A DNA stretch of 12,452 nt, taken from UHGV virus genome UHGV-2080389. One strand, given 5' to 3'. Below the pieces are notes generated by a model, which was given only the letters and a program-made list of their open reading frames with translations, was not told the origin of the DNA and ran no database searches. Made by a program: the position numbers and the translations under genes. The DNA comes from a virus. Position 1 is the stretch's first letter; each line of letters opens with the position of its first letter. Positions 448 through 12,452 of the stretch are shown one piece after another.

Positions 448-1068
448 TTACCCGCGACTGCAGCCGAAGCTACGGTCGCCATCTCCATATGCTTTTGTAT
501 CGAGTTTAGCTAGGTAGTCGAGACGATTCAGTAATTTATTGTATTCTCCTTCAAAGTTAAAATCATTGACGTCTAAAATATAACGACAATTTTCAGGGTA
601 GTGAACCAATCCCGGATAATCATCCAGTTCCAATCCCAGTGCGCTATACCATGCTCTTACAATCATCATCCTTAAATTTCTTTCAGCCTCATAATCACCT
701 AAATGGTAATAAGCATCTTTATTAAAAAAAAGACCAAGGTGAAAGTGACATTTTCCTTCTTCGGAAAACTCCCGTGCCCAAACATGACGAACACGGTTTG
801 GATATATTCTTTTGCCGTTAGCTGCTCTGGTTCTCTCATTGGCCTCCAACATGGCATTTAATGCATTACGGAAACGGGATATGGCACCAGGCTCTAGATT
901 AGGAAAACAGCAAACAGTGTCACCTCTGTCTAAAATGGGTGGATAATGAACATCAACACGTAACGCCATTGTTCTGGGGAATTCACTGATAGCATCATTG
1001 ACGACTCGTTCAATATGTTTTTTATAGGCGAGCACATGCTCACCATGGGAACCATGATATAATTCCAT
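448..1068 (-). CDS. YagK/YfjJ-family protein (inovirus Gp2-like domain), typical cargo of CP4-type islands
   Basis: 206-aa ORF with ATG at 1066-1068 and AGGA about 8 nt upstream. The protein resembles the YagK/YfjJ family of the E. coli K-12 CP4-6 and CP4-57 elements (recalled, not searched). Confidence 0.7.
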   Translation of the reverse strand: MELYHGSHGEHVLAYKKHIERVVNDAISEFPRTMALRVDVHYPPILDRGDTVCCFPNLEPGAISRFRNALNAMLEANERTRAANGKRIYPNRVRHVWAREFSEEGKCHFHLGLFFNKDAYYHLGDYEAERNLRMMIVRAWYSALGLELDDYPGLVHYPENCRYILDVNDFNFEGEYNKLLNRLDYLAKLDTKAYGDGDRSFGCSRG

Positions 1069-1270
1069 GTTTCGATCCTGTCGTTAGCCCTACGGCTTTG
1101 GATAGCCGTATATAGTAATATGATCAGACATAGCTGAATGTCTGTGGTTAGTTATATTAATTAACTATTAATAGTAATGACTGTTATATAATACCTTTCC
1201 AACAATAAAACTTGTTATCAACCCATTACCCATGCAGTAAAATACTTAAAAAGCAACTCTGCAATTATAA

Positions 1271-1447
1271 TCACCCAAAGATGCCATTATCCCAGTGTCT
1301 TTTTACCGTGGAAATACTTATTCCTAAGATCTTTGCCACCTTGGATTGAGAGTAATGCTTAGCCTTCTCACTCTGAATTAAATGGGAATATTTACTTCCT
1401 TCAGGCCTTCCTAGAATTTTCTTTGATTTTGCTTTGTTAGTAGGCAT
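1271..1447 (-). CDS. Small helix-turn-helix protein (58 aa); below the ORF-track size cut-off
   Basis: Hand-translated: ATG at 1445-1447 preceded by GAGGG about 6 nt upstream, TGA at 1271-1273. Product MPTNKAKSKKILGRPEGSKYSHLIQSEKAKHYSQSKVAKILGISISTVKRHWDNGIFG contains an HTH-like segment (SQSKVAKILGISISTVKRHW). Same orientation as flanking genes. Confidence 0.4.
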   Translation of the reverse strand: MPTNKAKSKKILGRPEGSKYSHLIQSEKAKHYSQSKVAKILGISISTVKRHWDNGIFG

Positions 1448-1529
1448 CTTTTACCCTCATCAAGCTATTAGGTACTAACTCCATACTGTCGAGATGTATG
1501 CAACTAAGTGGTTATGCTTAACATTGGTA

Positions 1530-2294
1530 TCAGAAAGTATGGCTTACTTCACCGTTAAAGGGGTTAATAATGATGGCATCTCCTCCTTTCATCGCCTTTT
1601 GAGGTGTATCGCCTTCGGCAATCACAGGGACCATTACCGCTAGATCATTTGTGTAATAAATTGGTATCCAGCAATAGCATGATTGTTTAGGGGGAGTTTT
1701 ATTTCTTTTCAATACTGCTTCAACTCCAAATGTAATAAGTTCAAAGATTGGCATAATCACAATGCTGCTCAAATCAAAAAAACAACCATCGTAGACTGTT
1801 TCCTTTATCAGTATGATATTAGATAACCCTCCTGCAATGAGATGTTTGTGGTTCACGCGCCGATCTGTGTAAATAAAAATTGCTTTTTTTACATTGAAAC
1901 TTTTTATAATGTATGAGAGCTTTTCATGAATTAATTTTTTTTCGCTCTTACCCATCTTATCATGAGGTATTTTGTGCGCATAAAAATCTTGATCGACAAC
2001 CTCGTTCCGGTGTCGAATGTGAGTGTTCCAGACGGAATGAAAAAACTCTTCGTAAGTTAATTTTGGCTCCCCCCGTGCTATTGACGGGACCTTCTCTTCA
2101 AAAATACAGCCTAATGTTGACTCCAAAGTTTGAGCTATATGATATTGCGATGTTATTTTATTCAATGCTGGGACTGTGGCGTTTAATAAAAATGATATCA
2201 CCTCTGACCTGGAGTATCCTTTTGCATTGCTATAGTCGTCAATTGCATCAATAGTAGAACTATTGTTTACGCTGAAAGTGATGCGTTTTTTCAT
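1530..2294 (-). CDS. Hypothetical protein with an N-terminal ribbon-helix-helix-like segment and a ~200-aa C-terminal region of unknown function; AT-rich
   Basis: 254-aa ORF with ATG at 2292-2294. N-terminus RITFSVNNSSTIDAIDDYSNAKGYSRSEVISFLLN has the beta-strand/helix pattern of RHH (CopG/Arc-type) domains. I recognise no family for the rest. Base composition is visibly more AT-rich than the surrounding genes. Confidence 0.6.
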   Translation of the reverse strand: MKKRITFSVNNSSTIDAIDDYSNAKGYSRSEVISFLLNATVPALNKITSQYHIAQTLESTLGCIFEEKVPSIARGEPKLTYEEFFHSVWNTHIRHRNEVVDQDFYAHKIPHDKMGKSEKKLIHEKLSYIIKSFNVKKAIFIYTDRRVNHKHLIAGGLSNIILIKETVYDGCFFDLSSIVIMPIFELITFGVEAVLKRNKTPPKQSCYCWIPIYYTNDLAVMVPVIAEGDTPQKAMKGGDAIIINPFNGEVSHTF

Positions 2295-2379
2295 ATGTGA
2301 CCTTGAATTTTGTTAATGTGAGATGTGATAAATAGTATTAATCTCCCCCCATTGTTAATGGAAGGTTTGTATTAACTAA

Positions 2380-2405
2380 CCCGGCTATTCTTTAGAATAG
2401 CCGGG
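2380..2405. repeat. Perfect 11-bp inverted repeat (CCCGGCTATTC-TTTA-GAATAGCCGGG)
   Basis: Read directly from the sequence. It sits 12 nt downstream (minus strand) of the AlpA-like stop and upstream of the 254-aa gene start; an adjacent GGAGGCCTC is also palindromic. Confidence 0.5.
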
Positions 2406-2416
2406 GGAGGCCTCTA

Positions 2417-2638
2417 TTAGTTACTATATACTGAGAAGGTTAATAGGTATCTATCAATGTCTTTACGTGACCAATAGTGTCGGTTTTTAATTTTCTTCGG
2501 TCGCGGTAAACCATTAGGCAGTTTGTCTTTGCAAAGCCAAGCTCGAATAGTTTGTACTTCATAGCCAATAATATTAGCTAACTCGCGGGTAGAAATTAGT
2601 TGTGACTGAGAGGGTTTTTGATGTTTGATATCGCTCAT
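2417..2638 (-). CDS. AlpA-family phage/island transcriptional regulator (excisionase-like HTH)
   Basis: 73-aa ORF with ATG at 2636-2638 and a GGGGTG RBS. The motif STRELANIIGYEVQTIRAWLCKDKLPNGLPRPKKIKNRHYWSRKDIDRYL matches the AlpA/Xis-like pattern (HTH followed by a basic wing and conserved W). Lies next to a P4-type integrase. Confidence 0.7.
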   Translation of the reverse strand: MSDIKHQKPSQSQLISTRELANIIGYEVQTIRAWLCKDKLPNGLPRPKKIKNRHYWSRKDIDRYLLTFSVYSN

Positions 2639-3138
2639 TTCATCACCCCAACATTTGATATGTGGGCAAATAAGACGATCATTGTTTTTAACAGAGATGA
2701 AAGAATGAAATGAAAAGGGGTGAATATGGGGTCTCTATCGGGATCGGGGTCGCTACTACTACCATCCGATGAAGATGATGATGAGTTTTTTGATGACGTT
2801 GTTGAACTTCGGCGTGAGCGGGAAGTATTCCCCTTTGGTGGAAAAAGGCATGTTATAGTATTGACTACATTCCTAATAGCAACTAAAAGTTTTGAAACAC
2901 GGTGCCAAAGAGGTAGTATTCGGTCAGTACTACTATTATTAAAACGCTGAATTGTTGTTTCCCAAAAATTAGAACTTTTGTTTTTAGTCGGATGTAAACC
3001 CCATCTCGCTCTGATTTCCGCACTTCGGTCTTCTCTTGATACAGTTATTGGGTTAGTCACTGTAGTTAATCTCCTGCTTAGTGAGTGAATGTAGTTAGCA
3101 GTAATAAAAGATAACTGAAAAAAAATTTCTGTCAACAC
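2635..3138 (-). CDS. Questionable ORF: Ser-rich, low-complexity product; starts with GTG in an AT-rich stretch
   Basis: Open frame whose TGA overlaps the AlpA-like ATG (ATGA). It contains no internal ATG until the last few codons and its product is low complexity (SSTTSSKNSSSSSSDGSSSDPDPD). It overlaps the plus-strand ORF 2726-2950; at most one of the two is real. Confidence 0.2.
   Translation of the reverse strand: MLTEIFFQLSFITANYIHSLSRRLTTVTNPITVSREDRSAEIRARWGLHPTKNKSSNFWETTIQRFNNSSTDRILPLWHRVSKLLVAIRNVVNTITCLFPPKGNTSRSRRSSTTSSKNSSSSSSDGSSSDPDPDRDPIFTPFHFILSSLLKTMIVLFAHISNVGVMK
2726..2950 (+). CDS. Questionable small ORF (74 aa) with an acidic stretch, divergent from the AlpA-like gene
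   Basis: ATG at 2726 preceded by AAGGGG at 2715-2720 (5-nt spacer). Product has GS-rich and acidic segments (SDEDDDEFFDDVVEL) and uses several codons rare in E. coli. The divergent arrangement mirrors yfjH/alpA in CP4-57, which is only weak support. Confidence 0.25.
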   Translation: MGSLSGSGSLLLPSDEDDDEFFDDVVELRREREVFPFGGKRHVIVLTTFLIATKSFETRCQRGSIRSVLLLLKR

Positions 3139-3174: not shown

Positions 3175-4494
3175 TCAACGCTTATCAACGTTGTTTTTTA
3201 TTTTTGCTTCTTCTAAGATCCATAATTCAACTTTTTCATGCCATTTTCTTAGCAAATCTAATGGACGGCGGCGATAGTGCTTTTCAGCAAGAGCGCTAGG
3301 CTTATGGCCCATAATCTGCGCAACAATACCTGTTGGTACTTCGACCCATTCAGCGAGGGTCCCAAAACTACGGCGCAATCCGTGCAAGCTGATATGTGGT
3401 AACTCCGCGCGAGTTAATGCTCTATTATGTGCTGAACGCGGTTCAATAATTTTGCCACTTTTGCTGTTACTTCTGAAAACCCAATTCTCCTCGTTTGTAC
3501 CACGATTGGGGATCTCCATCAGTGAGCGTAACAAGTCAGAAACATAGGGAGTGAGGGGGATAATTCGCTCGCCTTCGATCTTGTCTTTAATTCTCATGCT
3601 TGACCATTTGAAATCTATGTCAGACCAGCGAAGTGAGGAAATTTCTTCACGCCGTGCACCGGTGAGCAAAAGCACTTGGAGATAGGCTGATGCAATGGGA
3701 TTATTGAGGCTACGCACGGCACTGAACCAGCTTTTGAGCTGTTCTTTTTGTAAGCAATCTCCCGCTTTGCTCGCTGATATTGGAACCATTTTTCTCACGT
3801 TATGATCTTGTGCAAGATCGCCATCGATTATTCCCTGATATTTTTTCTGGTAATTAGCCCATTTGATGAATGCACGCAACAGACGGTAGGCATGAGCAGT
3901 GACGGTAGGCCGATTTTGTCTCTCTGTACTTAGCCATTCGGCAATGTTCTCTGGTGTTAGTTCTGATAATGGTCGGTCGAGCAGGCTAGCCAGTGGCCCA
4001 GGTGAGGTTGGGCCCCGGCCTCTTTTTTTACTTTCGCCTCCACGACTGGACAAGTTAACGTGATCGGCAATGTAGCGTGCAGAGTAGGGGCGTTTAGTTT
4101 TTGCGCTGATTCCGGTTCTCAATTCATCAAGATAATCTTCCCAAGCGCTTGAAAAGGTTGCCTTCGTTTTACGAGATTCAGCCTGCTGTGATTCCGCTTC
4201 AGCAATTTTTTCCGCCTTAGCTATACGCGGATCTATCCCAGTATCGATTAATGTTTGCAGTCGCCTGGCTTCGGCCCTCGCATCATCAATCCTCCAATCG
4301 TTAATGTTGCCAATGGTCATGCGAAGGGTTTTTCCCGCATACAGGCTTTGGAATACAAAGGCTTTTGCTCCACGAGTTGCTCGACATGCCAAGCTTGTTA
4401 CGTCCGTATCCCAAAGGAAAACTTGGTTTTTCCCTTCAGGTAAAGTAAATCTTCGAATTCGTTCGAAGGTTAGTTTTTGTCTTGAAAGCGCCAT
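3175..4494 (-). CDS. int: P4-family (CP4-type) tyrosine integrase
   Basis: 439-aa ORF with ATG at 4492-4494. N-terminal arm-binding-like region (GKTLRMTIGNINDWRIDDARAEARRLQTLIDTGIDP) and C-terminal catalytic signatures (HGLRRSFGT ... EKHYRR, with the Tyr nucleophile context). The start is adjacent to the tRNA-derived att core. Confidence 0.9.
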   Translation of the reverse strand: MALSRQKLTFERIRRFTLPEGKNQVFLWDTDVTSLACRATRGAKAFVFQSLYAGKTLRMTIGNINDWRIDDARAEARRLQTLIDTGIDPRIAKAEKIAEAESQQAESRKTKATFSSAWEDYLDELRTGISAKTKRPYSARYIADHVNLSSRGGESKKRGRGPTSPGPLASLLDRPLSELTPENIAEWLSTERQNRPTVTAHAYRLLRAFIKWANYQKKYQGIIDGDLAQDHNVRKMVPISASKAGDCLQKEQLKSWFSAVRSLNNPIASAYLQVLLLTGARREEISSLRWSDIDFKWSSMRIKDKIEGERIIPLTPYVSDLLRSLMEIPNRGTNEENWVFRSNSKSGKIIEPRSAHNRALTRAELPHISLHGLRRSFGTLAEWVEVPTGIVAQIMGHKPSALAEKHYRRRPLDLLRKWHEKVELWILEEAKIKNNVDKR

Positions 4495-4592: not shown

Positions 4593-4677
4593 CAGGTTTT
4601 TTGTTTTAATATTATGATTTAAAATGATAAATTTGTGATTTCTGATGGTTGTTCAAGCAGTTAAAATATAAAAACTT

Positions 4678-4726
4678 CGCATTCGTAATGCGAAGGTCGT
4701 AGGTTCGACTCCTATTATCGGCACCA
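4678..4726 (+). other. 3' segment of tRNA-Thr(CGU) (anticodon arm through CCA) without the 5' half: att core / displaced partial tRNA copy
   Basis: CGCATTCGTAATGCGAAGGTCGTAGGTTCGACTCCTATTATCGGCACCA contains an anticodon loop with CGT, a T-arm GGTTCGACTCC, an acceptor 3' strand TATCGGC and CCA. No matching 5' acceptor strand (GCCGATA) or D-arm lies upstream. It resembles the thrW 3' end, the attachment site used by P22-type integrases and by CP4-6 (recalled). Confidence 0.75.
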
Positions 4727-4740
4727 TTTAAATCAATAAG

Positions 4741-5064
4741 TTACCTAGCATTTAAGTAAACCACGTTCTCCTCTTGTGCCGTATTTGTGCCATTGCGACT
4801 TATAATCGCATCGATTTTGCTTGCGTGCTCGGTGAGATGCCCGGCTGAAAGGTGGGCGTATCTTTGAACCATTTCGAGAGTTTCCCATCCTCCCATCTCT
4901 TTAAGTGCAAGAAGAGAGACACCGGACTGAACCAGCCAGCTTGCCCAGGTATGCCTCAGATCATGGAAGCGGAAGTTGCTAATGCCTGCCCGCTTTAACG
5001 CTCCCTTCAGAAATCCATCCATCTCAATTAGTGACATTTGTTTCATTTCTTCCCACTCCGCCAC
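4741..5064 (-). pseudogene. int: C-terminal remnant of a P22-type tyrosine integrase
   Basis: Product [42 protein letters not shown] matches the conserved C-terminal catalytic region of P22-like Int. The tracked 'M' start is a GTG. The frame is closed by a stop roughly 16 codons upstream, and there is no room for the ~280 missing N-terminal codons before the next genes. Confidence 0.7.
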
Positions 5065-5225
5065 ATCGCATTCAGATATTTGTTTTGATTTACTGATGGA
5101 AAAGAATTTCTCTTAAGCAATTCCTCTCTCGATGGCATTGGCTTTACGCGTTGGCGAATAATCATTTCTGCCGGAAGAATGCCGGGATTGTATGCAAGTC
5201 CTCTCATGGTAAATTCCTCAGTCAT
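5043..5225 (-). CDS. Small hypothetical protein (about 60 aa), translationally coupled to the upstream gene
   Basis: ATG at 5223-5225 lies inside the upstream gene's last codons (AATGACTGA overlap). Product [42 protein letters not shown]... The tracked ORF 5043..5357 extends it with a less protein-like N-terminal stretch that is probably not translated. Confidence 0.35.
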
Positions 5226-5511
5226 TACTGATAGCGCCATAGCGTGAGCGGTAATTACGCAGGCGCGGGTCAATTTCAGGGAAGTGGGTATATGTGGCTT
5301 TGCGGAATGGTCGGATTGATGTCTGGTAAATTCGCTCGCGTTCTTCTTTCTCTGCAAGCCATATACAATGGCGAAATTCCTTTTCCTCTTTCGTTTCCTG
5401 CGGTAGAGACATTATTCGATCGTAGTTTTTTCTGAATTTATCCAGCACCTCCGATACGGAATTGCCGGAACAGCGGCGCGCGTCGTCCGCACCATACAGA
5501 GGCGCTGGCAT
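5218..5511 (-). CDS. Hypothetical early-operon protein (97 aa)
   Basis: ATG at 5509-5511 preceded by AAGGA (7-8 nt spacer), 23 nt downstream of the ssb-like stop. I recognise no family. Confidence 0.5.
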
Positions 5512-5534
5512 AATGGAATCCTTATGTTGCTACT

Positions 5535-5918
5535 TTAGAAGGGAATTGAATCGTCGTATTCAGGATGATTTTGATGATTGCTACTTTGCTGCTGTTGGCT
5601 GTTTCCTGAGGTTGCAAATCCAATCTTTGCATTCAGTAATTCAAGAGTGATTGATTGACCATTTTGCCCCTGATAAACATCAACCCTGATGTTTTCTCCG
5701 GTAATTTCTACAATGCCACCTTCAACAAGAACACTACGGTAGTAATCCGCTTGCGCTCCCGGCTTGGCAAATACAACGGCGCTGTAGTTTGTCCATTCTT
5801 TCTTTTTTGTCTGGCGATCGTAATACTGAACGCCAGCACGGATGTTGAATCCGATATTTTCCCCGGCCTGAAACTCTCTTGCGGGCTTGTTTAGTCTTAC
5901 AGTAATCGAATGTGCCAT
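5535..5918 (-). CDS. ssb: Phage single-stranded DNA-binding (SSB-like) protein
   Basis: 127 aa from the ATG at 5916-5918 (AAGGAG upstream). OB-fold-like core with a Gln/Ser-rich linker and an acidic tail ending DDSIPF, like the SSB C-terminal DDDIPF tip. The tracked 157-aa ORF over-extends the N-terminus into the erf 3' end. Confidence 0.75.
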   Translation of the reverse strand: MAHSITVRLNKPAREFQAGENIGFNIRAGVQYYDRQTKKKEWTNYSAVVFAKPGAQADYYRSVLVEGGIVEITGENIRVDVYQGQNGQSITLELLNAKIGFATSGNSQQQQSSNHQNHPEYDDSIPF

Positions 5919-6523
5919 TAAGCAGCCGCTCCTTCTAATTCGTCTCGTCTGATGTTGTAAACGTCCTGCGCTTTGTGCTGCTCCGGTGTGCCTTCGAGCA
6001 TCTTCCACGCTTTGGCGAACGCCTGTTTAAGCTCTTCTACGGTGTTTTTCTGCATTGCTGCGTCAGTGAATGCTTTTAGAACCTGTTCAGGTGTAGGTGA
6101 TGGTTTTGATTGCTTTGCTGCTGCGTTCTGCTGATGTTTATGCTCGTCGGTATCTGCATCTTTCGCATCATCAATGCCGAACAAACCATTGAGGCAATAC
6201 TTGCGTGCATAAGAGCTTGTAGCTCCCGTAACTTGTGCAGAATCCATTCCTTTCTTGCTTTCTTCCTCTCGTGCAAGAGCGGTTGCCGTATGACTGTTTT
6301 CGCCATCGGTAATAGTTGCCGTGGCTTTCACGTAATACCGATCACCAATCAACACAACTTCATCGCTGATTGATAAAAACAGGCCATTCAGTAACGGCTT
6401 AACGCCTTCAAGAATGTCTTCGCAGCTTCTGTATTTATATTTGCCGAATGAGTTGTACTGATTCTTTGGTGCGTTCAGATTCTCCTGAATAGCTGCCAGT
6501 CTTGCGTAAAATTCTTTGCTCAT
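5918..6523 (-). CDS. erf: Erf (essential recombination function) single-strand annealing protein, P22-type
   Basis: From MSKEFYARLAAIQENLNAPKNQYNSFGKYKYRSCEDILEGVKPLL..., closely matching my recollection of P22 Erf. ATG at 6521-6523. Its TAA overlaps the ssb ATG by one base (TAATG at 5916-5920). Confidence 0.9.
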   Translation of the reverse strand: MSKEFYARLAAIQENLNAPKNQYNSFGKYKYRSCEDILEGVKPLLNGLFLSISDEVVLIGDRYYVKATATITDGENSHTATALAREEESKKGMDSAQVTGATSSYARKYCLNGLFGIDDAKDADTDEHKHQQNAAAKQSKPSPTPEQVLKAFTDAAMQKNTVEELKQAFAKAWKMLEGTPEQHKAQDVYNIRRDELEGAAA

Positions 6524-6533
6524 ATGATTGTTC

Positions 6534-7022
6534 TCAGAATGGACACGGCCCAAGTAAATAACGCTGATTTAATACTTCAGTCTTTGCCGCATTTAAAAAT
6601 ACGCGAACACCTTCACGATCTCCCTTCTGGCGATACATTAACGCCTGCTGCGTGTACATGCGTCTCCGGTAGCCTGCCGCGTAAATGGCTACGTTTGGAA
6701 GACATACACCAGTTTCTGGTTGCTTATGTCCAAACTCATTCGCGTACACAATGGCCGCTCGCTCCAGATTGCGTCTGTATTCTTTCTGTTGCCAGATCAC
6801 GTCCTGTGCCATGAACTTAATTGGCTTAGCGTCTTCTATGCGCTCAGGCGTTTCGTGAGTACCTTTAGCCTGAATCTGCGCTCTGCTTAGAGTAGGGCGG
6901 TGTAATACTTCTGAACTTATTGCTTCTTCGCGGGCCAGCACGCCGTTAGCTAATGCCTTTGCCTTTAAACGCTCACGACGACGAGAACGTGAATTGCCTT
7001 TGAACTGAGTTCTGCGTGTCAT
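6534..7022 (-). CDS. N-like transcription antitermination protein with a P22-type arginine-rich motif
   Basis: ATG at 7020-7022 with AGGAGG 6 nt upstream. N-terminal GNSRSRRRERLKAKALA aligns with the P22 N arginine-rich motif (GNAKTRRHERRRKLAIER) and lambda N (QTRRRERRAEKQAQW). It is the first gene downstream of PL/nutL. At 162 aa it is longer than lambda N. Confidence 0.55.
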   Translation of the reverse strand: MTRRTQFKGNSRSRRRERLKAKALANGVLAREEAISSEVLHRPTLSRAQIQAKGTHETPERIEDAKPIKFMAQDVIWQQKEYRRNLERAAIVYANEFGHKQPETGVCLPNVAIYAAGYRRRMYTQQALMYRQKGDREGVRVFLNAAKTEVLNQRYLLGPCPF

Positions 7023-7187
7023 ATAGACCTCCTGATGAACTTTGGTGGTGTGGTAGGTGGGAGACCTATTTCGACCTGTTTCGGCCTACTTCAATTCGGC
7101 AATAGTCCCGCAGGCCTCGCCGCTTTACGTGCGACATATTCCCGTCCATGAACCCTTCACCACACCCCAAAGTTCACTTTGGTTATT

Positions 7188-7202
7188 GCGCTTTGTCAGC
7201 GC
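7188..7202 (-). promoter_or_regulatory. nutL boxB hairpin, P22 type (transcript reads GCGCUGACAAAGCGC: 5-bp stem, GACAA loop)
   Basis: Plus strand gcgctttgtcagcgc. Located in the PL leader between the PL start (about 7264) and the N-like start (7022). The 15-mer matches the P22 boxB-left RNA as I recall it. Confidence 0.55.
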
Positions 7203-7270
7203 CGTAGATTCATATTTGAATCGTTGTATATTCACCGCCCTGGTGAGTAGTGCGTCCTGCTGATGTGTTT

Positions 7271-7333
7271 AGTATCACCGCCAGTGGTATTTATGTCAAC
7301 ACCGCTAGAGATAATTTATCACCGCAGATGGTT
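7271..7333 (-). promoter_or_regulatory. Lambda-type OL1-OL2-OL3 operators with PL (-10 GATACT = plus 7271-7276; -35 TTGACA = plus 7294-7299; 17-bp spacer)
   Basis: OL1 at 7273-7289 (TATCACCGCCAGTGGTA), OL2 at 7297-7313 (one mismatch to lambda OL2), OL3 at 7317-7333 (TATCACCGCAGATGGTT). These are the lambda 17-mers from memory. Confidence 0.85.
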
Positions 7334-7418
7334 ATCTGTATGTTTTTTATATGAATTTATTTTTTGCAGGGGTGCATTGTTTGGTAGGTGAGAGATCTGA
7401 ACTGCTATGTTTAGTGAG

Positions 7419-7448
7419 TTGTATCTATTTATTTTCAAATAGATACAA
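7419..7448. repeat. Perfect 12-bp inverted repeat (TTGTATCTATTT-ATTTTC-AAATAGATACAA)
   Basis: Read directly from the sequence, between OL3 and the tIMM-like terminator. Confidence 0.5.
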
Positions 7449-7485
7449 TTGGTTATGTGTTCTTGGGTGAGGGGGATCGTGAGGC

Positions 7486-7511
7486 AAAGAAAACCCGGCT
7501 CTGTGGCCGGG
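7486..7511 (-). terminator. Intrinsic terminator ending the leftward cI/rex-slot transcript (tIMM-like)
   Basis: Minus strand reads CCCGGC-CACAGA-GCCGGG followed by UUUUCUUUG, immediately after the last rex-slot stop at 7520-7522. Confidence 0.6.
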
Positions 7512-7519
7512 AATAACAT

Positions 7520-7898
7520 TTAGGAATCAAGGTCAGGTAGCATGATTTTCTCAATCAACGTCAATGCCCTTTGGTCTCGTTCAGCAAAATATTTAGGAGC
7601 GTACTGAGGCAGCCACACTTCGTTGAAGTATTGTTTGAAATCTGCAATATTCGTTTGGGTATAGACGTACCGGGAATGTCCGGCCATCTGGGTACTCATG
7701 GTTATATGTTGGGAATGTCTTCGGCTCAACCCCCCGGTTGTCACGGAGCCATTGCGAGAAAACCCTACCCTCTGAAATATCAGGGACCATTTTTTCTGGC
7801 AGCGTATATCCGGCCTGTTCAAGTGGCGCAACCAAGTTAAACGTCAGTTCATTAAGCATAGAAAAGTGCGTATGAGGAACTCTGCCTCGGTTTGTCAT
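7520..7898 (-). pseudogene. Disrupted C-terminal portion of the KilA-N-domain gene (two ORF fragments in different frames)
   Basis: ORF 7593..7898 is in the same frame as the KilA-N ORF, separated from it by one TAA (7938-7940) with 13 sense codons between that TAA and the next ATG. ORF 7520..7831 is in the +1 frame. Protein-like sequence runs in the first frame up to about ...FPVRLYPNEY and continues in the second from about ...NIADFKQYFNEVWLPQYAPKYFAERDQ, so the switch is near 7640-7665. Confidence 0.4.
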
Positions 7899-7937
7899 AT
7901 ACCGCTTAAGGTGGATAGGGAGTTCGGCAGGCGCTCT

Positions 7938-8279
7938 TTAACCTGACATCCACTCACGCACCCATCTCGATACTTGCACTGCAAATTTTGGAGATAGCCA
8001 CTGAGCTAAATTAATTGCGATGTCTGGATGAACCCAAGTCCCTTGATTCTCTGCTCTTCCGCCTTTAAATGATTGAATTAACTCCGATATGGGAATCCCC
8101 ATATCGCGTGATAATTCATCAAAAAAATCTTGTGTTGTTTTTAGTCGTGTATAGTCAGCAAGTAGCTTCCCCGCAGACTTGCACATCGCGGTGGCATTGA
8201 TGTATCCGTCTTTGGTGCGAAGATGGATGACTTCTCCATCAACTTCTCTAGCGATTAATGCAAGTTGAAATTGTGTCAT
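7938..8279 (-). CDS. KilA-N (APSES-like) DNA-binding domain protein in the rexAB position
   Basis: 113-aa ORF with ATG at 8277-8279 and AGGA 7 nt upstream, 31 nt downstream of the cI stop. Signature GTWVHPDIAINLAQWLSPKFAVQVSRWV is typical of the KilA-N domain. Confidence 0.7.
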   Translation of the reverse strand: MTQFQLALIAREVDGEVIHLRTKDGYINATAMCKSAGKLLADYTRLKTTQDFFDELSRDMGIPISELIQSFKGGRAENQGTWVHPDIAINLAQWLSPKFAVQVSRWVREWMSG

Positions 8280-8310
8280 AAATCATCCTATTACGTGAAA
8301 AATAAAACAA

Positions 8311-9027
<717 letters not shown>

Positions 9028-9034
9028 TTAAATC

Positions 9035-9100
9035 TATCACCGCAAGGGATAAACTTCTAACACCGTGCGTGTTGACTATTTTACCTCTAGCGGTGATAAT
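9035..9100. promoter_or_regulatory. Lambda OR3-OR2-OR1 with divergent PRM/PR (PR -35 TTGACT 9072-9077, -10 GATAAT 9095-9100)
   Basis: OR3 at 9035-9051 (TATCACCGCAAGGGATA), OR2 at 9058-9074 (TAACACCGTGCGTGTTG), OR1 at 9082-9098 (one mismatch to lambda OR1). The PR spacer is 17 bp. Confidence 0.9.
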
Positions 9101-9124
9101 GGTTGCCTGTACTAAGGAGGTTGT

Positions 9125-9325
9125 ATGGAACAACGCATAACCCTGAAAGATTATGCAATACGCTTTGGGCAAACCAAGACGGCTAAAGATCTCGGCGTAT
9201 ATCAAAGCGCGATTAACAAGGCCATTCATGCAGGCCGAAAGATTTTTTTAACTATAAACGCTGATGGAAGCGTTTATGCGGAAGAAATAAAGCCCTTCCC
9301 AAGTAACAAAAAAACAACTGCATAA
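9125..9325 (+). CDS. cro: Cro repressor (lambda type, 66 aa)
   Basis: [66 protein letters not shown] differs from lambda Cro at two positions from memory. AGGAGG RBS upstream. Confidence 0.95.
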
Positions 9326-9333
9326 GTAACACC

Positions 9334-9378
9334 GCTCTTTTCACAATGGACATTCGTCCTACGTCGCTGACAAAGCGA
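9334..9378 (+). promoter_or_regulatory. nutR: boxA-like CGCTCTTTT (9334-9342) and P22-type boxB hairpin UCGCUGACAAAGCGA (9364-9378)
   Basis: Located between the cro stop and cII. The boxB has the same GACAA loop and 5-bp stem architecture as nutL. A small hairpin (ATGCGT-TTCC-ACGCAT, 9409-9424) follows and may be part of a tR1-like region. Confidence 0.55.
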
Positions 9379-9462
9379 GCCCCAAGATATCTGACCAACT
9401 AAGGCCATATGCGTTTCCACGCATACCTTTCAACTAACTATTCACTATTGGAAAATTAACAA

Positions 9463-9759
9463 ATGACACAAGCAAGTTATAGCAAACCAACACAGCGAGA
9501 AATTGATCGCGCTGAAACTGATTTACTCATCAACCTGTCAACGCTTACCCAGCGCGGTCTGGCAAAGATGATTGGCTGTCATGAATCGAAGATAAGCAGA
9601 ACGGACTGGAGGTTTATTGCTTCGGTCTTGTGTGCTTTCGGAATGGCATCAGACATCAGTCCGATTAGCAGGGCTTTTAAGTATGCATTGGATGGAATCA
9701 CAAAGAAAAAATCCCCGGCCGCCACCGAGGATTTTAAGCAAATTGATATGCAATTCTGA
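9463..9759 (+). CDS. cII: CII-like transcriptional activator
   Basis: 98 aa. The central ...SKISR...W... segment and the C-terminus KKKSPAATEDFKQIDMQF resemble lambda CII (...KKRPAATERSEQIQMEF), but the protein overall is a different allele. Confidence 0.7.
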   Translation: MTQASYSKPTQREIDRAETDLLINLSTLTQRGLAKMIGCHESKISRTDWRFIASVLCAFGMASDISPISRAFKYALDGITKKKSPAATEDFKQIDMQF

Positions 9760-9791
9760 GGTCATTACTGGATCAATCTACAGGAGTAATT

Positions 9792-9953
9792 ATGACAAAA
9801 CGTCGTAAGAAATACCAGGAAAAAGAAGAGATTCGACACCCTGATTCACCTGAGGGATTAGTGGTAGCCGCAGCAAATAACAGGGCGTTCGCAGAGCGCC
9901 TTGTTGGTGTTTACAGACTAGCCAAAGCAGGAGTGAAACATGGGCGTCGTTAA
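9792..9953 (+). CDS. Small hypothetical ORF (53 aa); below the ORF-track cut-off
   Basis: ATG at 9792 with AGGAG 5 nt upstream. Product MTKRRKKYQEKEEIRHPDSPEGLVVAAANNRAFAERLVGVYRLAKAGVKHGRR, stop at 9951-9953. It overlaps the next ORF by 14 nt. Confidence 0.4.
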   Translation: MTKRRKKYQEKEEIRHPDSPEGLVVAAANNRAFAERLVGVYRLAKAGVKHGRR

Positions 9954-10110
9954 GTTAGCTGATTACAGGCCTCAACTGGAGGTCGTGGAGCATCGCGTGG
10001 CAGAACTCGAAGATGGCTACACTCGGACTGCAAACACACTGTTAGAAGCCGCCATGCTTTACCGAATACTGAAGAATTACGCCAAAACCCTGACAGGAGC
10101 AGGAGTATGA
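9940..10110 (+). pseudogene. O-like replication initiator: N-terminal stub only (56 codons)
   Basis: ATG at 9940 with AGGAG upstream. The segment VAELEDGYTRTANTLLEA aligns with the lambda O N-terminus (VADLDDGYARLSNMLLEA, recalled). The frame then ends after about 20 more codons, with no room for the remaining ~250 codons of O or for P. Confidence 0.45.
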
Positions 10111-10195
10111 AGTCAGAGATAACAATCAACTAATACTGTTTTGTTGATTTTTGCTTGTGATTGGCGTTCTGGTCTGATTTTTGTGGAGTAAGTTG

Positions 10196-10581
10196 ATGCG
10201 TGATATTCAGATGGTTCTTGAGCGTTGGGGAGCGTGGGCGGCTAATAATCATGAANNNNNNNNNNNNNNNNNNNNATTGCCGCCGGTTTTAAGGGATTAA
10301 TTCCTTCAAAAGTAAAATCTCGCCCGCAATGTTGTGACGATGACGCGATGATCATTTGCGGGTGCATGGCCCGTCTGAAAAAGAACAACAGCGATTTGCA
10401 CGATTTATTAGTAGATTATTATGTAGTCGGTATGACATTCATGTCACTGGCAGGTAAGCATTGCTGCTCTGATGGTTATATCGGGAAAAGGTTACAGAAG
10501 GCTGAGGGCATAATTGAAGGGATGTTAATGGCATTAGATATCCGGTTAGAGATGGATATCGTTGTTAATAACTCTAATTAA
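10196..10581 (+). CDS. Q: Q-family late antiterminator (phage 82 / QuuD type), interrupted by a 20-N gap
   Basis: ATG at 10196 (GGAG 7 nt upstream) gives [20 protein letters not shown] up to the N-run. After the N-run the frame of ORF 10348..10581 reads [36 protein letters not shown]...VVNNSN. Both halves match my recollection of Q82/QuuD. Confidence 0.75.
10256..10275. other. Run of 20 N: assembly or scaffold gap, not biological sequence
   Basis: Literal n characters. Flanking Q codons are out of frame by one across the run, so its length is a placeholder. Confidence 0.95.
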
Positions 10582-10594
10582 TATGCCAATTGTT

Positions 10595-10633
10595 TACTAA
10601 AAATTATTAAAAATGGGGCGTTGAGACGCCCCC
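10595..10633 (-). terminator. Intrinsic terminator for minus-strand transcription downstream of the porin gene
   Basis: Minus strand reads GGGGCG-UCUCAA-CGCCCC followed by AUUUUUAAUAAUUUUUAG. Confidence 0.5.
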
Positions 10634-10720
10634 AAAAATAAAGGGTAATATATAACAGAAGGTTTATATAGTTAGAAGCAAGGTTGTGCTTCTAAAGGAA
10701 GTGGCTTGAGGGAGCCACTT

Positions 10721-10760
10721 ATATGTTGGGGAGGCAACGCCTCCCGCAACATATCTTTTT
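10721..10760 (+). terminator. Strong plus-strand intrinsic terminator downstream of Q (tR'-like)
   Basis: ATATGTTG-GGGAGGC-AAC-GCCTCCC-G-CAACATAT (about 15-bp stem with one bulge) followed by CTTTTTC. A second hairpin (AAGTGGCT/AGCCACTT) lies at 10699-10720. Confidence 0.6.
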
Positions 10761-10770
10761 CGTAATCAGA

Positions 10771-11868
10771 TTAGAACTGGTAAACCAGACCTACAGCAAC
10801 GATGTCATCAGTGCTTACACCGAGTGCTTTAGTGAAGTCATTTTTGTCAAGCAGGTTGATTTTGTAATCAACGAAAGTAGACATATTTTTGTTGAAGTAA
10901 TAGGTTGCACCTACATCAACATATTTGACTAAGTCCTGATCGCCCCATACTCCAAGATCTTTACCTTTAGATTGCAGGTAAGCAACGGACGGACGCAGAC
11001 CGAAATCGAACTGATATTGTGCAACAGCTTCGAAGTTTTGGGCTTTATTAGCAACGAAGTGATCAGCAAATACAGTCATATTCTGGGTTTCAGAATAGGT
11101 AGTGGCCAGGTAAATGTTGTTAGCGTCATATTTCAGACCTGCGGCCCAAACTTCTGCATTTTTACCGGAAGCAAATACTTCAGGAAGAACTTTCCCTGCA
11201 TTAACTTGAGTGTCGGTACGATCAGATTTCGCATAAGTTGCACCGATACCGAATCCTTCGTATTCATAGGTAGCAGAGAAACCGAAGCCATCACCGTTAC
11301 CTTCAGTGTAGTTATCGAAATCGCTACGATCGTTTTTGCCTTGGTACTGAGCAGCAAAGTTCAGACCATCAACCAGACCAAAGAAGTCGTTGTTACGATA
11401 GGTTGCAACACCAGTGGTGCGACCAGTCATGAACACATCTGTTTGGGTCCAGGTATCGCCACCGAATTCTGGCAGAACGTCAGTCCACGCACCGATGTCG
11501 TATGCTACACCGTAGTTACGGCCGTAATCGATTGAGCCGTAGTCACCGAATTTCAGGCCTGCAAATGCAAGACGGGTTTTGTCTTTGGAGGAACCTTGAG
11601 ATTCAGCGCGGTTGCCTTTGAATTCATATTCCCACTGACCGAAACCAGTCAGTTGATCGTTGATTTGGGTTTCACCTTTGAAGCCAAGACGGGCATAAGT
11701 AGTATCACCATCATCTGCATCATTAGAGGAGAAGTAGTGCTTGGCATTAACTTTCCCGTACAGATCCAGCTTGTTACTGTCTTTATTATAAATTTCAGCT
11801 GCCTGAGCAGACATCGCCATCAGTACTGATGCAGCTACAGCAGAAATTGCCACTGTTAATTTTTTCAT
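10771..11868 (-). CDS. nmpC: Prophage-borne outer-membrane porin (NmpC/Lc family, OmpC-like), with signal peptide
   Basis: 365-aa ORF. N-terminal signal [23 protein letters not shown] followed by AEIYNK, and the classic porin C-terminus ...VGLVYQF. Its position between Q and the lysis genes, on the opposite strand, is that of nmpC in DLP12 and lc in phage PA-2. Confidence 0.9.
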
Positions 11869-12296
11869 CGTGAGCCCTTTTTTTTGAACTATTATTAAAA
11901 AATGATGTCACTGCGCGATAAATATTCATCTAATCAATGTGATTATTTCAAGATGTAAGTTTTGGTTTCTCGTTTGATTTGTGAAGTAGATCTCTATTTT
12001 TATCTGAACTTTTTTCTATCGAATCCTATTCATAGCTCTTGGCTGAATAAAAATAAATCTATTAGTCAATTTATATTAACGGCTGTTATTTATAAGTGCT
12101 CTATAATTTGAAGGTTCAATTTAAATCGGCTAAAAATAACACTGGAAATTATTTGTTGGTTATTTGTTGAGGTTTTCTTATGTATTTGTGGTGGTGTTTT
12201 GAACACTCGGTAGCATTCTCATAAATATCATTCAGTGGTTTACGTACGTAAAAAATTGGTTATGCTGTTAAGAGTGGTTACTTCGTCACACAGCTT

Positions 12297-12329
12297 AAAC
12301 CCGCCGTCGAGCGGGTTTTTCCATTTTTT
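12297..12329 (+). terminator. Plus-strand intrinsic terminator just upstream of the holin-like start
   Basis: AAACCCGC-CGTCGA-GCGGGTTT followed by TTCCATTTTTT. Confidence 0.45.
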
Positions 12330-12441
12330 GAGTCTCGATATTAGCTGATAACCCAATACCTGAGTTATTCACTGACTCCGAGTCTGTTACGTTTCGTAGT
12401 ATTCCCTCAATTTACACCCGCTTTGTCTGCGAGGTGGGGTT

Positions 12442-12452
12442 ATGAAATCCAT
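12442..12452 (+). CDS. First codons of a lysis gene, probably a class II (S21-type) holin; continues beyond the window
   Basis: GAGGTGG RBS at 12431-12437 then ATGAAATCCAT (M K S ...). S21-type holins begin MKSMDK and follow the porin in DLP12-like prophages. Only 11 nt are visible. Confidence 0.35.

What the first reader, a model, noticed from the sequence alone, without database searches (positions are those of the whole stretch)
1530..2294. AT-rich orphan cargo gene: RHH-like N-terminus fused to a large unrecognised domain
This 254-aa ORF is visibly more AT-rich than its neighbours, suggesting acquisition from a low-GC source. The first ~35 residues look like a ribbon-helix-helix DNA-binding module, but the protein continues for about 200 residues with no family signature I recognise. 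RHH modules usually occur as small stand-alone repressors or antitoxins, so a single-chain fusion is unusual. It sits in the variable cargo position between the integrase/AlpA genes and the YagK-like gene, where K-12 CP4-6 carries yagL/M/N. This type of location often holds defence or addiction functions.
Basis: partly seen in the sequence, partly recalled or inferred. Interest (0 to 1): 0.65.

Follow-up and report, generated by a model that had tools for sequence, protein, structure and literature searches.

The report
Divergent YagM-family island backbone gene
The 254-codon gene is not an orphan cargo gene but a diverged copy of the uncharacterised E. coli K-12 gene yagM, a conserved backbone gene of CP4-6-type genomic islands whose product starts with a CopG-like DNA-binding module, so it is a fairly ordinary find in a family whose function is still unknown.

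Summary

- **Not an orphan.** It is a full-length homologue of K-12 YagM (32% identity, E 2e-43; hhalign probability 100%). Close relatives carry Pfam PF27701 (UCP007319).
- **Not in a variable slot.** The order int–yagN–ykgV–yagM–yagL–yagK recurs in every chromosomal island locus long enough to show it, across about 12 genera. The cargo (sucrose operon, type I R-M and others) starts beyond yagK.
- **Not more AT-rich than its neighbours.** It is 37.3% GC. The three adjacent genes are 36.9-38.3%.
- **No defence or toxin signal.** PADLOC, Pfam and PHROGs find nothing in the C-terminal ~180 residues. No solved structure resembles that region, and few residues in it are conserved family-wide, so an enzyme is unlikely.

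Family members also sit beside intact serine resolvases on small plasmids. In islands the resolvase (YagL) is decayed. Here only its 58-aa HTH tail remains.

Best guess: a sequence-specific DNA-binding regulator or architectural protein of the element's own maintenance module. Function is unproven. Interest is low to moderate.

The parts
1530..2294 (-). yagM-like gene (254 aa; RefSeq WP_008321066.1 'hypothetical protein'); YagM / UCP007319 (PF27701) family
   Evidence: ORF. It is 32% identical to K-12 YagM over 249 aa, E 2e-43; hhalign probability 100%. Relatives carry PF27701. dN/dS 0.14-0.26.
2169..2294 (-). Codons 1-42: RHH DNA-binding module (strand KRITFSV, helix A 12-25, S-R-S cap, start of helix B)
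   Evidence: S28, S30 and P42 are among the very few positions conserved across the whole family.
1533..2069 (-). Codons 76-254: alpha/beta C-terminal domain with no relative among solved structures
2295..2416 (-). ykgV-yagM intergenic region. It holds a perfect 12-bp-arm palindrome (2380-2405) and a conserved proximal block (2301-2332). Both are candidate promoter/operator/terminator elements.
   Evidence: The palindrome GCTATTCT..AGAATAGC recurs in loci whose YagM is only 37-39% identical. One symmetric (compensatory) change is seen within the close clade.
1271..1447 (-). 58-aa HTH ORF: the C-terminal tail of YagL, with the resolvase catalytic domain lost
   Evidence: 58% identical to YagL residues 183-232. 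The ORF is conserved in 7 related loci with dN/dS 0.23-0.35. It gives weak hits to HTH families.
448..1068 (-). yagK-like gene (YagK_YfjJ_C; RefSeq 'inovirus Gp2 family protein') with HUH-like motifs
   Evidence: PF11726 E 5e-52. 56% identical to YagK. R.D, H.H (CHFHLGLFF) and YL.K are invariant in the alignment.
1069..1270 (-). AT-rich (32% GC) non-coding region upstream of yagK. Conserved blocks at 1246-1266 and 1187-1204, and a hairpin at 1087-1110.
2417..2638 (-). ykgV-like AlpA/HTH_17 gene (73 aa)
   Evidence: 66% identical to YkgV. PF12728 E 2.7e-6.
2635..3138 (-). yagN-like gene (167 aa, Ser/Asp-Pro-rich). Its stop overlaps the ykgV-like start.
   Evidence: 31% identical to YagN, E 7e-12. 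ORF.
3175..4494 (-). IntF-type tyrosine integrase (439 aa)
   Evidence: 89% identical to K-12 IntF. Phage_integrase and Arm-DNA-bind_3 domains.
4675..4725 (+). 3' part of a tRNA-Thr(CGU)-like gene (thrW-type att repeat) that bounds the island
   Evidence: Rfam tRNA match at 4651-4723, 36.3 bits. ARAGORN finds no complete tRNA. Sequence read; coordinates.

Best explanation
**What it is (shown).** The gene is a diverged allele of yagM. It is a conserved backbone gene of CP4-6-type integrative islands, which insert at thrW in K-12.

**How it most likely works (inferred).**
- The protein most likely dimerises through its N-terminal CopG-like RHH module.
- The resulting two-stranded beta-sheet (R4/T6/S8 of MKKRITFSV) would read repeated or palindromic DNA in the element's own control regions. 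Candidates are the conserved palindrome and proximal block between ykgV and yagM, and the conserved blocks upstream of yagK.
- The long helix (residues 29-67) and the alpha/beta C-terminal domain would provide higher-order oligomerisation, or contacts to the adjacent YagL protein. YagL is serine-recombinase-derived and survives here only as a 58-aa HTH tail.
- The net role would be an autoregulatory repressor or architectural DNA-binding factor for the yagM-yagL-yagK maintenance module.
- It is neither cargo nor a defence effector.

**Status of each step.** Shown: homology, synteny, purifying selection and the RHH resemblance. Inferred: dimerisation, the DNA targets, the repressor role and the job of the C-terminal domain.
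For: **Identity.**
- BLASTP to K-12 YagM: 32% identity over 249 aa, E 2e-43. hhalign probability 100%.
- All five neighbours are collinear with CP4-6.
- The same order is present in full in 9 loci, and in part in every other locus, across about 12 Enterobacterales genera. The Salmonella contig shows it too.

**Backbone, not cargo.** The genes beyond yagK differ between loci while yagM stays:
- scr operon;
- type I R-M.

**RHH module.**. The S-R-S cap and P42 are the best-conserved positions family-wide.

**Non-enzymatic C-domain.**
- Only F173, D174 and G190 are nearly invariant across the family.
- No Pfam, PHROG or PADLOC hit on the C-terminal domain in any of 24 members.
- The domain is still strongly constrained (dN/dS 0.08-0.12).

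**Link to a DNA-transaction module.**
- A serine-recombinase-type gene lies directly downstream in islands and on two plasmid-like molecules. PF00239 scores 1e-33 and 3e-32 on the plasmids, but only 20-24 bits in islands.
- In distant members, AlpA and a YagK-like Rep lie divergently upstream.

**Conserved non-coding elements next to the gene.**

**Established knowledge.** Nearly all characterised RHH proteins are operator-binding repressors or architectural factors.
Against: - No DNA binding, dimerisation or regulation was tested.
- RHH sequence scores are all below curated thresholds.
- The AF2 monomer leaves residues 1-11 unstructured, with pLDDT 45.
- The direct repeat CATTAACAA x2 upstream of the gene is not conserved in relatives.
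- The conserved palindrome could equally be a transcript hairpin or terminator for ykgV, or a site for another protein.
- Neither YagL nor YagK is a universal neighbour, so no single partner is established.
- The C-terminal domain has no structural analogue from which to argue.
Confidence: 0.5

Rival explanations
1. YagM is an accessory or architectural factor of a DNA-transaction enzyme rather than a transcription regulator. It would bind next to a recombination or nick site. There it would help the neighbouring serine recombinase (multimer resolution or directionality), or the HUH Rep-like YagK (origin or oriT assembly). The RHH proteins TraY, TraM and NikA do this in relaxosomes.
For: - yagM-like genes sit directly upstream of intact resolvases on a 4.1-kb circular Providencia plasmid and on a Rep_3 plasmid-like contig. 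The gap is 134-135 nt, about the size of a res site from my knowledge of Tn3 res.
- The 4.1-kb plasmid shares a ~0.5-kb non-coding segment with more than 150 small plasmids. That segment is probably its origin, so YagM is not its replication protein.
- YagK carries HUH-like H.H and YL.K motifs.
- Conserved hairpins and blocks lie upstream of yagK.
Against: - In islands the resolvase domain is decayed or deleted, yet yagM stays under purifying selection. Its role therefore cannot depend on resolvase catalysis.
- YagK is absent from the plasmid contexts.
- No res, ori or oriT site was identified.
- The TraM match is weak.
Confidence: 0.25
2. A single-chain addiction or anti-phage module. The RHH part would act as an autoregulating antitoxin-like domain. 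The C-terminal domain would be a toxic or abortive-infection effector.
For: - The islands carry defence cargo.
- A position upstream of a resolvase resembles where Tn3-family transposons keep toxin-antitoxin pairs (my knowledge: Lima-Mendez et al. 2020).
- K-12 yagM lies behind one of the strongest Rho-dependent terminators. Its authors link that class to silencing toxic prophage genes (PMC9160355).
Against: - PADLOC gives 0 hits.
- No toxin family appears in Pfam, NCBIfam or PHROGs for any of 24 members.
- No catalytic-type residues are conserved.
- The gene holds a fixed backbone position while the defence cargo varies.
- K-12 yagM clones were recovered as survivors in an ASKA overexpression screen, so it is not grossly toxic (PMC8228696). 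This is weak evidence.
- No phage homologues were found.
Confidence: 0.12
3. A CopG-like copy-number repressor of a rolling-circle replicon. After excision the island would replicate using YagK as HUH initiator. YagM would repress the rep promoter, as CopG represses copG-repB in pMV158.
For: - The N-terminus closely resembles CopG: MKKRITFSV against MKKRLTITL.
- yagK encodes a Rep-like protein: PF11726, a weak REP_ORF2-G2P hit and HUH-like motifs.
- In distant members the Rep-like gene is divergently transcribed from the yagM-like gene across a 290-380-nt shared control region.
Against: - yagM-like genes occur without any yagK on plasmids that replicate by other means.
- The protein is about five times the size of CopG.
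- There is no evidence that these islands replicate.
- yagL lies between yagM and yagK.
Confidence: 0.1

Closest known systems
E. coli K-12 YagM (b0279, CP4-6 cryptic prophage); Pfam PF27701 'UCP007319'
   Same: - Homologous over the full length: 32% identity, E 2e-43, hhalign probability 100%.
- Same slot between the AlpA-like ykgV and yagL/yagK, next to an IntF-type integrase that is 89% identical.
- The function of the family is unknown. It is on the y-ome list (PMC11551758).
   Different: - Only 32% identical.
- It lacks the ~35-residue N-terminal extension of the annotated K-12 protein.
- Its downstream partner is reduced to a 58-aa HTH.
- This allele is rare in E. coli: 14 of 5426 complete genomes, against 337 for the K-12 allele. 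It is found mainly in Kluyvera, Enterobacter, Citrobacter, Serratia, Scandinavium and Buttiauxella.
CopG (pMV158) and other small RHH repressors (Arc, Mnt, omega)
   Same: - Strand-helix-helix pattern.
- Nearly the same N-terminal strand.
- S-x-S cap at helix B.
   Different: - CopG is 45 aa and stands alone. This protein has ~210 further residues, including a long helix and an alpha/beta domain.
- No operator or regulatory target has been shown.
NikR (RHH plus C-terminal regulatory alpha/beta domain)
   Same: Same kind of architecture: an N-terminal RHH followed by an alpha/beta domain that could oligomerise or sense a signal.
   Different: - Foldseek matches to NikR are insignificant: E 1.5-2.9, probability <= 0.11.
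- No conserved His/Cys metal ligands.
- Not a member.
RHH antitoxins (ParD, CopG-family antitoxin 5ceg_A, MazE4, TacA2)
   Different: - No cognate toxin gene.
- No toxin-like domain recognised.
Relaxosome accessory RHH proteins (TraM, TraY, NikA)
   Same: - RHH plus an oligomerisation domain.
- Encoded near an HUH-type gene.
   Different: - No conjugation genes or oriT known.
- The score is weak.
- yagK has not been shown to be a relaxase.

Membership tests
YagM / UCP007319 (Pfam PF27701) | Full-length sequence similarity to K-12 YagM | tested here: met
   BLASTP 32% identity over 249 of 254 residues, E 2e-43. hhalign probability 100%, 248 aligned columns.
YagM / UCP007319 (Pfam PF27701) | Match to the PF27701 model above threshold | tested here: inconclusive
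   The local Pfam copy lacks PF27701. All 22 relatives, including a 96%-identical one, carry a precomputed PF27701 hit. That is an indirect pass.
YagM / UCP007319 (Pfam PF27701) | Genomic position between an AlpA-like gene and yagL/yagK next to an IntF-type integrase | tested here: met
Ribbon-helix-helix (CopG/Arc/MetJ) superfamily | N-terminal strand-helix-helix sequence pattern with a polar cap at helix B | tested here: met
   - hhalign of the N-terminal profile against CopG: probability 90.5%, E 1.4e-6.
- PDB profile search finds CopG, E 0.16.
- DUF6364 hits 8 of 24 members, all below the gathering score.
- S28/S30 are conserved.
- Support is moderate, not strong.
Ribbon-helix-helix (CopG/Arc/MetJ) superfamily | Fold: two helices packing as in RHH proteins | tested here: met
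Ribbon-helix-helix (CopG/Arc/MetJ) superfamily | Obligate dimer forming an antiparallel beta-ribbon that binds operator DNA | not testable with these tools
   Only monomer prediction is available. Residues 1-11 are coil at pLDDT 45.
Known anti-phage defence systems (PADLOC-DB v2) | Match to any defence-protein model | tested here: not met
   0 families at E <= 1.
Type II toxin-antitoxin module with an RHH antitoxin | Adjacent or fused recognisable toxin domain | tested here: not met
   - No toxin family in Pfam, NCBIfam or PHROGs for 24 members.
- The neighbours are an HTH gene and a Rep-like gene.
NikR-like regulators | C-terminal ACT/ferredoxin-like tetramerisation domain with conserved metal ligands | tested here: not met
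   Foldseek E 1.5-2.9. No conserved His/Cys.
CopG-type copy-control repressors of rolling-circle replicons | Small RHH gene immediately upstream of, and co-transcribed with, the rep gene it represses | tested here: not met
   - The protein is 254 aa, not small.
- yagL and a 202-nt spacer separate it from yagK.
- Family members occur without yagK.

The most novel reading that the evidence does not exclude
The YagM family is the DNA-binding partner of a small serine recombinase. The pair would be an ancient plasmid and island maintenance module. In CP4-type islands it has been domesticated: the recombinase has lost catalysis, and here even its catalytic domain. In this reading YagM uses a previously unseen C-terminal fold to assemble a nucleoprotein complex. 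That complex would control excision, replication by the HUH protein YagK, or stability of a widespread class of enterobacterial defence-carrying islands.
Probability: 0.2. Interest if true: 0.6.

Novelty: new member of a known kind. Interest (0 to 1): 0.3.

Why it matters
- **Annotation.** This gene, the 58-aa ORF and yagK should be treated as island backbone. They should not be counted as cargo or candidate defence genes when such islands are mined.
- **A y-ome family.** The work gives the first domain-level reading for YagM/UCP007319: a CopG-like RHH, a long helix and a constrained alpha/beta domain with no solved relative.
- **Where to test it.** The series from intact resolvase (plasmids) to decayed resolvase (islands) to HTH only (this lineage) points to a tractable system. 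The 4.1-kb Providencia plasmid is a natural place to test what YagM does.
- **Limits.** None of this is a major surprise, and the function remains unproven.

Tried and rejected
- **Pfam, NCBIfam, PADLOC and PHROGs** on the protein and on 24 family members gave only weak N-terminal RHH-type hits.
- **Exhaustive profile search** of 1.8 billion representatives found only 51 hits. All were family members or fragments, with no bridge to another family.
- **An N-terminal-only profile against PDB** did not improve on the full-length profile. Designed helical repeats outranked CopG.
- **Phage genomes** gave no homologue.
- **Rfam** found nothing in the island apart from the tRNA fragment, and nothing on the small plasmid-like loci.
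- **The direct repeat CATTAACAA x2** (2310-2327 and 2352-2369) looked like an operator. Its distal copy is not conserved in close relatives, so it was dropped.
- **GGCTATYCWAAAG** was searched as a shared motif between the two hairpins. It occurs only once.
- **Literature searches** for PF27701 and UCP007319 returned no papers. The yagM, yagK and yfjJ literature holds only screen hits and lists.
- **The wide alignment A2** was too divergent for locus retrieval, so A1 was used instead.
- **Considered and rejected:**
  - pseudogene or chance ORF, ruled out by dN/dS and conservation;
  - NikR membership;
  - a replication protein of the 4.1-kb plasmid, because its likely origin is a segment shared with more than 150 small plasmids.

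Full report
**1. The observation**

- The window has an ATG-to-stop ORF of 254 aa at 1530-2294 on the minus strand. An AAGG motif lies about 6 nt upstream of the ATG.
- Twenty-two database relatives start at the same M-x-K-R-I-T-F and run to about the same length.
- Against orthologues in Kluyvera, Scandinavium, Serratia, Buttiauxella and another E. coli, dN/dS is 0.14-0.26. Over codons 76-254 it is 0.08-0.12. It is a real, constrained gene.
- The claim that it is more AT-rich than its neighbours does not hold.
  - The ORF is 37.3% GC.
  - The adjacent ykgV-like gene is 36.9%, the yagN-like gene 38.3% and the 58-aa ORF 37.9%.
  - The yagK-like gene is 41.1% and the integrase 46.0% (profile).
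  - The whole stretch 1069-3138 is uniformly low in GC.

**2. Identity**

- The local Pfam, NCBIfam and PADLOC libraries give nothing above threshold.
- All 22 relatives found in the 5.8-billion-protein collection carry a precomputed Pfam family, PF27701. A later look-up names it UCP007319.
- Fetching K-12 CP4-6 showed that the protein is a full-length homologue of YagM: 32% identity, E 2e-43; hhalign probability 100%.
- The neighbours are collinear with K-12:

| Window gene | K-12 counterpart | Similarity |
|---|---|---|
| integrase | IntF | 89% identical |
| ORF167 | YagN | 31% identical, E 7e-12 |
| 73-aa HTH | YkgV | 66% identical |
| 58-aa ORF | last 50 residues of YagL | 58% identical |
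| 206-aa ORF | YagK | 56% identical |

- So the gene is not where K-12 has yagL/M/N. It is the yagM counterpart.
- An exhaustive HMMER profile search of 1.84 billion representatives found only 51 family members or fragments. The family is small, confined mainly to Enterobacterales, and catalogued.
- K-12 YagM itself is uncharacterised. It is on the y-ome list (PMC11551758). Otherwise it appears only as a hit in oxidant-resistance, persister and c-di-GMP screens.

**3. Backbone, not cargo**

- I called ORFs in the 20 fetched loci and matched them to the six reference proteins.
- Wherever the contig extends far enough, the order int–yagN–ykgV–yagM–yagL–yagK is found. The genera are Escherichia, Kluyvera, Scandinavium, Serratia, Buttiauxella, Erwinia, Winslowiella, Pantoea, Enterobacter, Proteus, Providencia and Pectobacterium.
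- What lies beyond yagK differs between loci:
  - a sucrose (scr) operon in E. coli MS6192 and AW1.7;
  - type I R-M in E. coli LHM10-1, Providencia and Pectobacterium;
  - a Gabija-like pair on the other flank in Providencia.
- The window itself starts inside the scr-type cargo. The HATPase_c_4 fragment at 129-392 is part of it.
- This allele is in 14 of 5426 complete E. coli genomes. The K-12 allele is in 337.

**4. Anatomy of the protein**

- **N-terminus.**
  - MKKRITFSV...GYSRSEVISFLL aligns to CopG MKKRLTITL...GLSKSAMISVAL.
  - hhalign of a 24-sequence N-terminal profile against CopG residues 1-39 gives probability 90.5%, E 1.4e-6.
  - The AF2 model (mean pLDDT 78) has helices at 12-25 and 29-67.
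  - Across the widest alignment the only invariant or near-invariant positions are S28, S30, P42, F173, D174 and G190, apart from the start methionine. The RHH cap is the family's most conserved feature.
- **C-terminus (residues 76-254).**
  - It is an alpha/beta domain with confident core strands.
  - The TDR motif of the close clade is N-Q-R in K-12 YagM.
  - No catalytic-looking motif survives family-wide, which argues for a binding or oligomerisation domain rather than an enzyme.

**5. Partners**

- **In islands.** The gene immediately downstream is YagL-like. Its resolvase domain scores only 20-24 bits against PF00239, at or below the 23.3-bit gathering score.
- **In this lineage.** Only a 58-aa HTH remains. 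It is conserved, with dN/dS 0.23-0.35.
- **On plasmid-like molecules.**
  - On a 4136-bp circular Providencia plasmid, a yagM-like gene sits 134 nt upstream of a bona fide resolvase (PF00239 E 1e-33).
  - On a 6.6-kb Rep_3 plasmid-like contig, a very distant family member sits 135 nt upstream of another bona fide resolvase (PF00239 E 3e-32).
  - The Providencia plasmid shares a ~0.5-kb non-coding segment with more than 150 small Morganellaceae and Enterobacteriaceae plasmids. That segment is most likely its origin, so YagM is not its replication protein.
- **In other distant members.**
  - There is no resolvase. Instead an AlpA gene and a YagK/REP_ORF2-G2P-like gene lie divergently upstream.
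  - They sit at the junction between defence cargo (Dpd, type I R-M, TerB/BrxC-like) and a CP4-57-like conserved arm.
- **YagK.** It has invariant R.D, H.H (CHFHLGLFF) and YL.K motifs. This fits an HUH-type Rep or relaxase, and RefSeq calls it 'inovirus Gp2 family protein'.
- **YagL.** K-12 YagL binds nucleic acids through its C-terminal HTH (PMC11587861).
- **Overall.** The constant theme is a mobile-element maintenance module. No single partner is universal.

**6. Non-coding context**

- Just after the ykgV-like stop there is a perfect palindrome, CCCGGCTATTCT-AA-AGAATAGCCGGG, at 2380-2405.
  - Its core GCTATTCT/AGAATAGC recurs in Erwinia and Winslowiella (imperfectly in Enterobacter wuhouensis), whose YagM proteins are only 37-39% identical to this one. 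A variant occurs in Pectobacterium.
  - Within the close clade it shows one symmetric G:C to A:T change.
  - As RNA the region folds well, z = -4.6.
  - It could be a transcript hairpin or a symmetric protein-binding site.
- A 32-nt block at 2301-2332, just upstream of the start codon, is also conserved.
- Upstream of yagK, blocks at 1246-1266 and 1187-1204 (TGTTGGAAAGGTATTATA) are conserved, even in Providencia and Pantoea. A TACGG...CCGTAGG hairpin at 1087-1110 is conserved in most loci, with compensatory inner pairs.
- In K-12, one of the strongest Rho-dependent terminators lies upstream of yagM (PMC9160355).

**7. Mechanism**

- I commit to this reading: a CopG-like RHH dimer that binds the element's own control DNA. 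The C-terminal domain would oligomerise or contact YagL. The protein would act as a repressor or architectural factor of the yagM-yagL-yagK module. Confidence is about 0.5 for this mechanism and above 0.95 for the identity and backbone status.
- Rivals:
  - an accessory factor for the serine recombinase or the HUH protein (0.25);
  - a fused addiction or defence protein (0.12);
  - a CopG-like copy controller of a YagK rolling-circle replicon (0.10).
- The evidence for and against each is listed in the Rival explanations section.

**8. Verdict**

- The ORF and its RHH-like start are real.
- The 'AT-rich orphan cargo in a variable slot' reading is not supported.
- It is a new, diverged member of a known but uncharacterised family (YagM/UCP007319).
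- Interest is low to moderate (0.3). It rests on two things: the unknown fold and function of a y-ome family, and the resolvase-decay series that suggests how to study it.

Noticed in passing
window 1271-1447 (-): A 58-aa HTH ORF, not annotated in RefSeq records such as MS6192, is the surviving C-terminal tail of YagL. It is 58% identical to YagL residues 183-232. Across loci there is a series: intact resolvase on plasmids, decayed resolvase domain in islands, and HTH only here. The short ORF is conserved, with dN/dS 0.23-0.35.
   Followed up: yes
window 2380-2405: A perfect 12-bp-arm palindrome, CCCGGCTATTCT AA AGAATAGCCGGG, lies just after the ykgV-like stop and has no T-run. Its core recurs in distantly related islands, and one symmetric compensatory change is seen in close relatives. 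It is either a transcript hairpin or a dimer-binding site.
   Followed up: partly
window 1069-1270: This is a 202-nt, 32% GC spacer upstream of yagK. Blocks AATTGCAGAGTTGCTTTTTAA (1246-1266) and TGTTGGAAAGGTATTATA (1187-1204) are conserved across genera. Hairpin TACGGCT..AGCCGTAGG (1087-1110) keeps its pairing in most loci through compensatory changes. The region is a candidate promoter, 5'UTR or origin for the Rep-like gene.
   Followed up: partly
window 448-1068 (-): The YagK-like protein has invariant R.D, H.H (CHFHLGLFF) and YL.K motifs in an alignment that includes distant members. This fits an HUH-type Rep or relaxase. The family appears uncharacterised in the searchable literature.
   Followed up: partly
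window 4651-4725 (+): Rfam calls a tRNA here (36.3 bits) but ARAGORN does not. Only the 3' ~50 nt (anticodon arm with CGU, T arm, acceptor end, CCA) look like tRNA-Thr. This is probably the thrW-type att repeat that bounds the island.
   Followed up: partly
window 4741-12452: Directly beyond the att fragment lie a truncated integrase ORF (4741-5064, -) and a lambdoid prophage segment. The segment has a lambda-cI-like repressor (8311-9024), a cro-like gene (9125-9325), a cII-like gene (9463-9759) and a porin gene (10771-11868). The cI/cro/cII labels are my reading of the translations. The island and the prophage appear to sit in tandem at one site. No complete E. coli genome holds the whole window in one piece.
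   Followed up: no
window 10256-10275: A run of 20 N (assembly or scaffold gap) lies inside the prophage part.
   Followed up: no
window 3175-4494 (-): RefSeq annotates the identical integrase in MS6192 and AW1.7 as a pseudogene with an internal stop, 1395 nt long. The 439-aa ORF aligns to IntF from IntF residue 26 to the end. The 'internal stop' may therefore just reflect an over-long N-terminal model.
   Followed up: no
L021 (NZ_CP114799.1, 4136-bp circular Providencia plasmid): This small plasmid carries only a yagM-like gene, an intact resolvase and a 381-aa lipoprotein-like gene. Its non-coding segment at 194-704 is ~93% identical to segments in more than 150 small plasmids of Proteus, Providencia and Morganella, and is likely a shared Rep-independent origin. 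Rfam finds no RNAI-type match.
   Followed up: partly
window 2635-3138 (-): The YagN-like ORF has a Ser-rich and Asp-Pro-rich low-complexity tract. Its stop overlaps the start of the ykgV-like gene, which suggests translational coupling. It has no family in Pfam.
   Followed up: no
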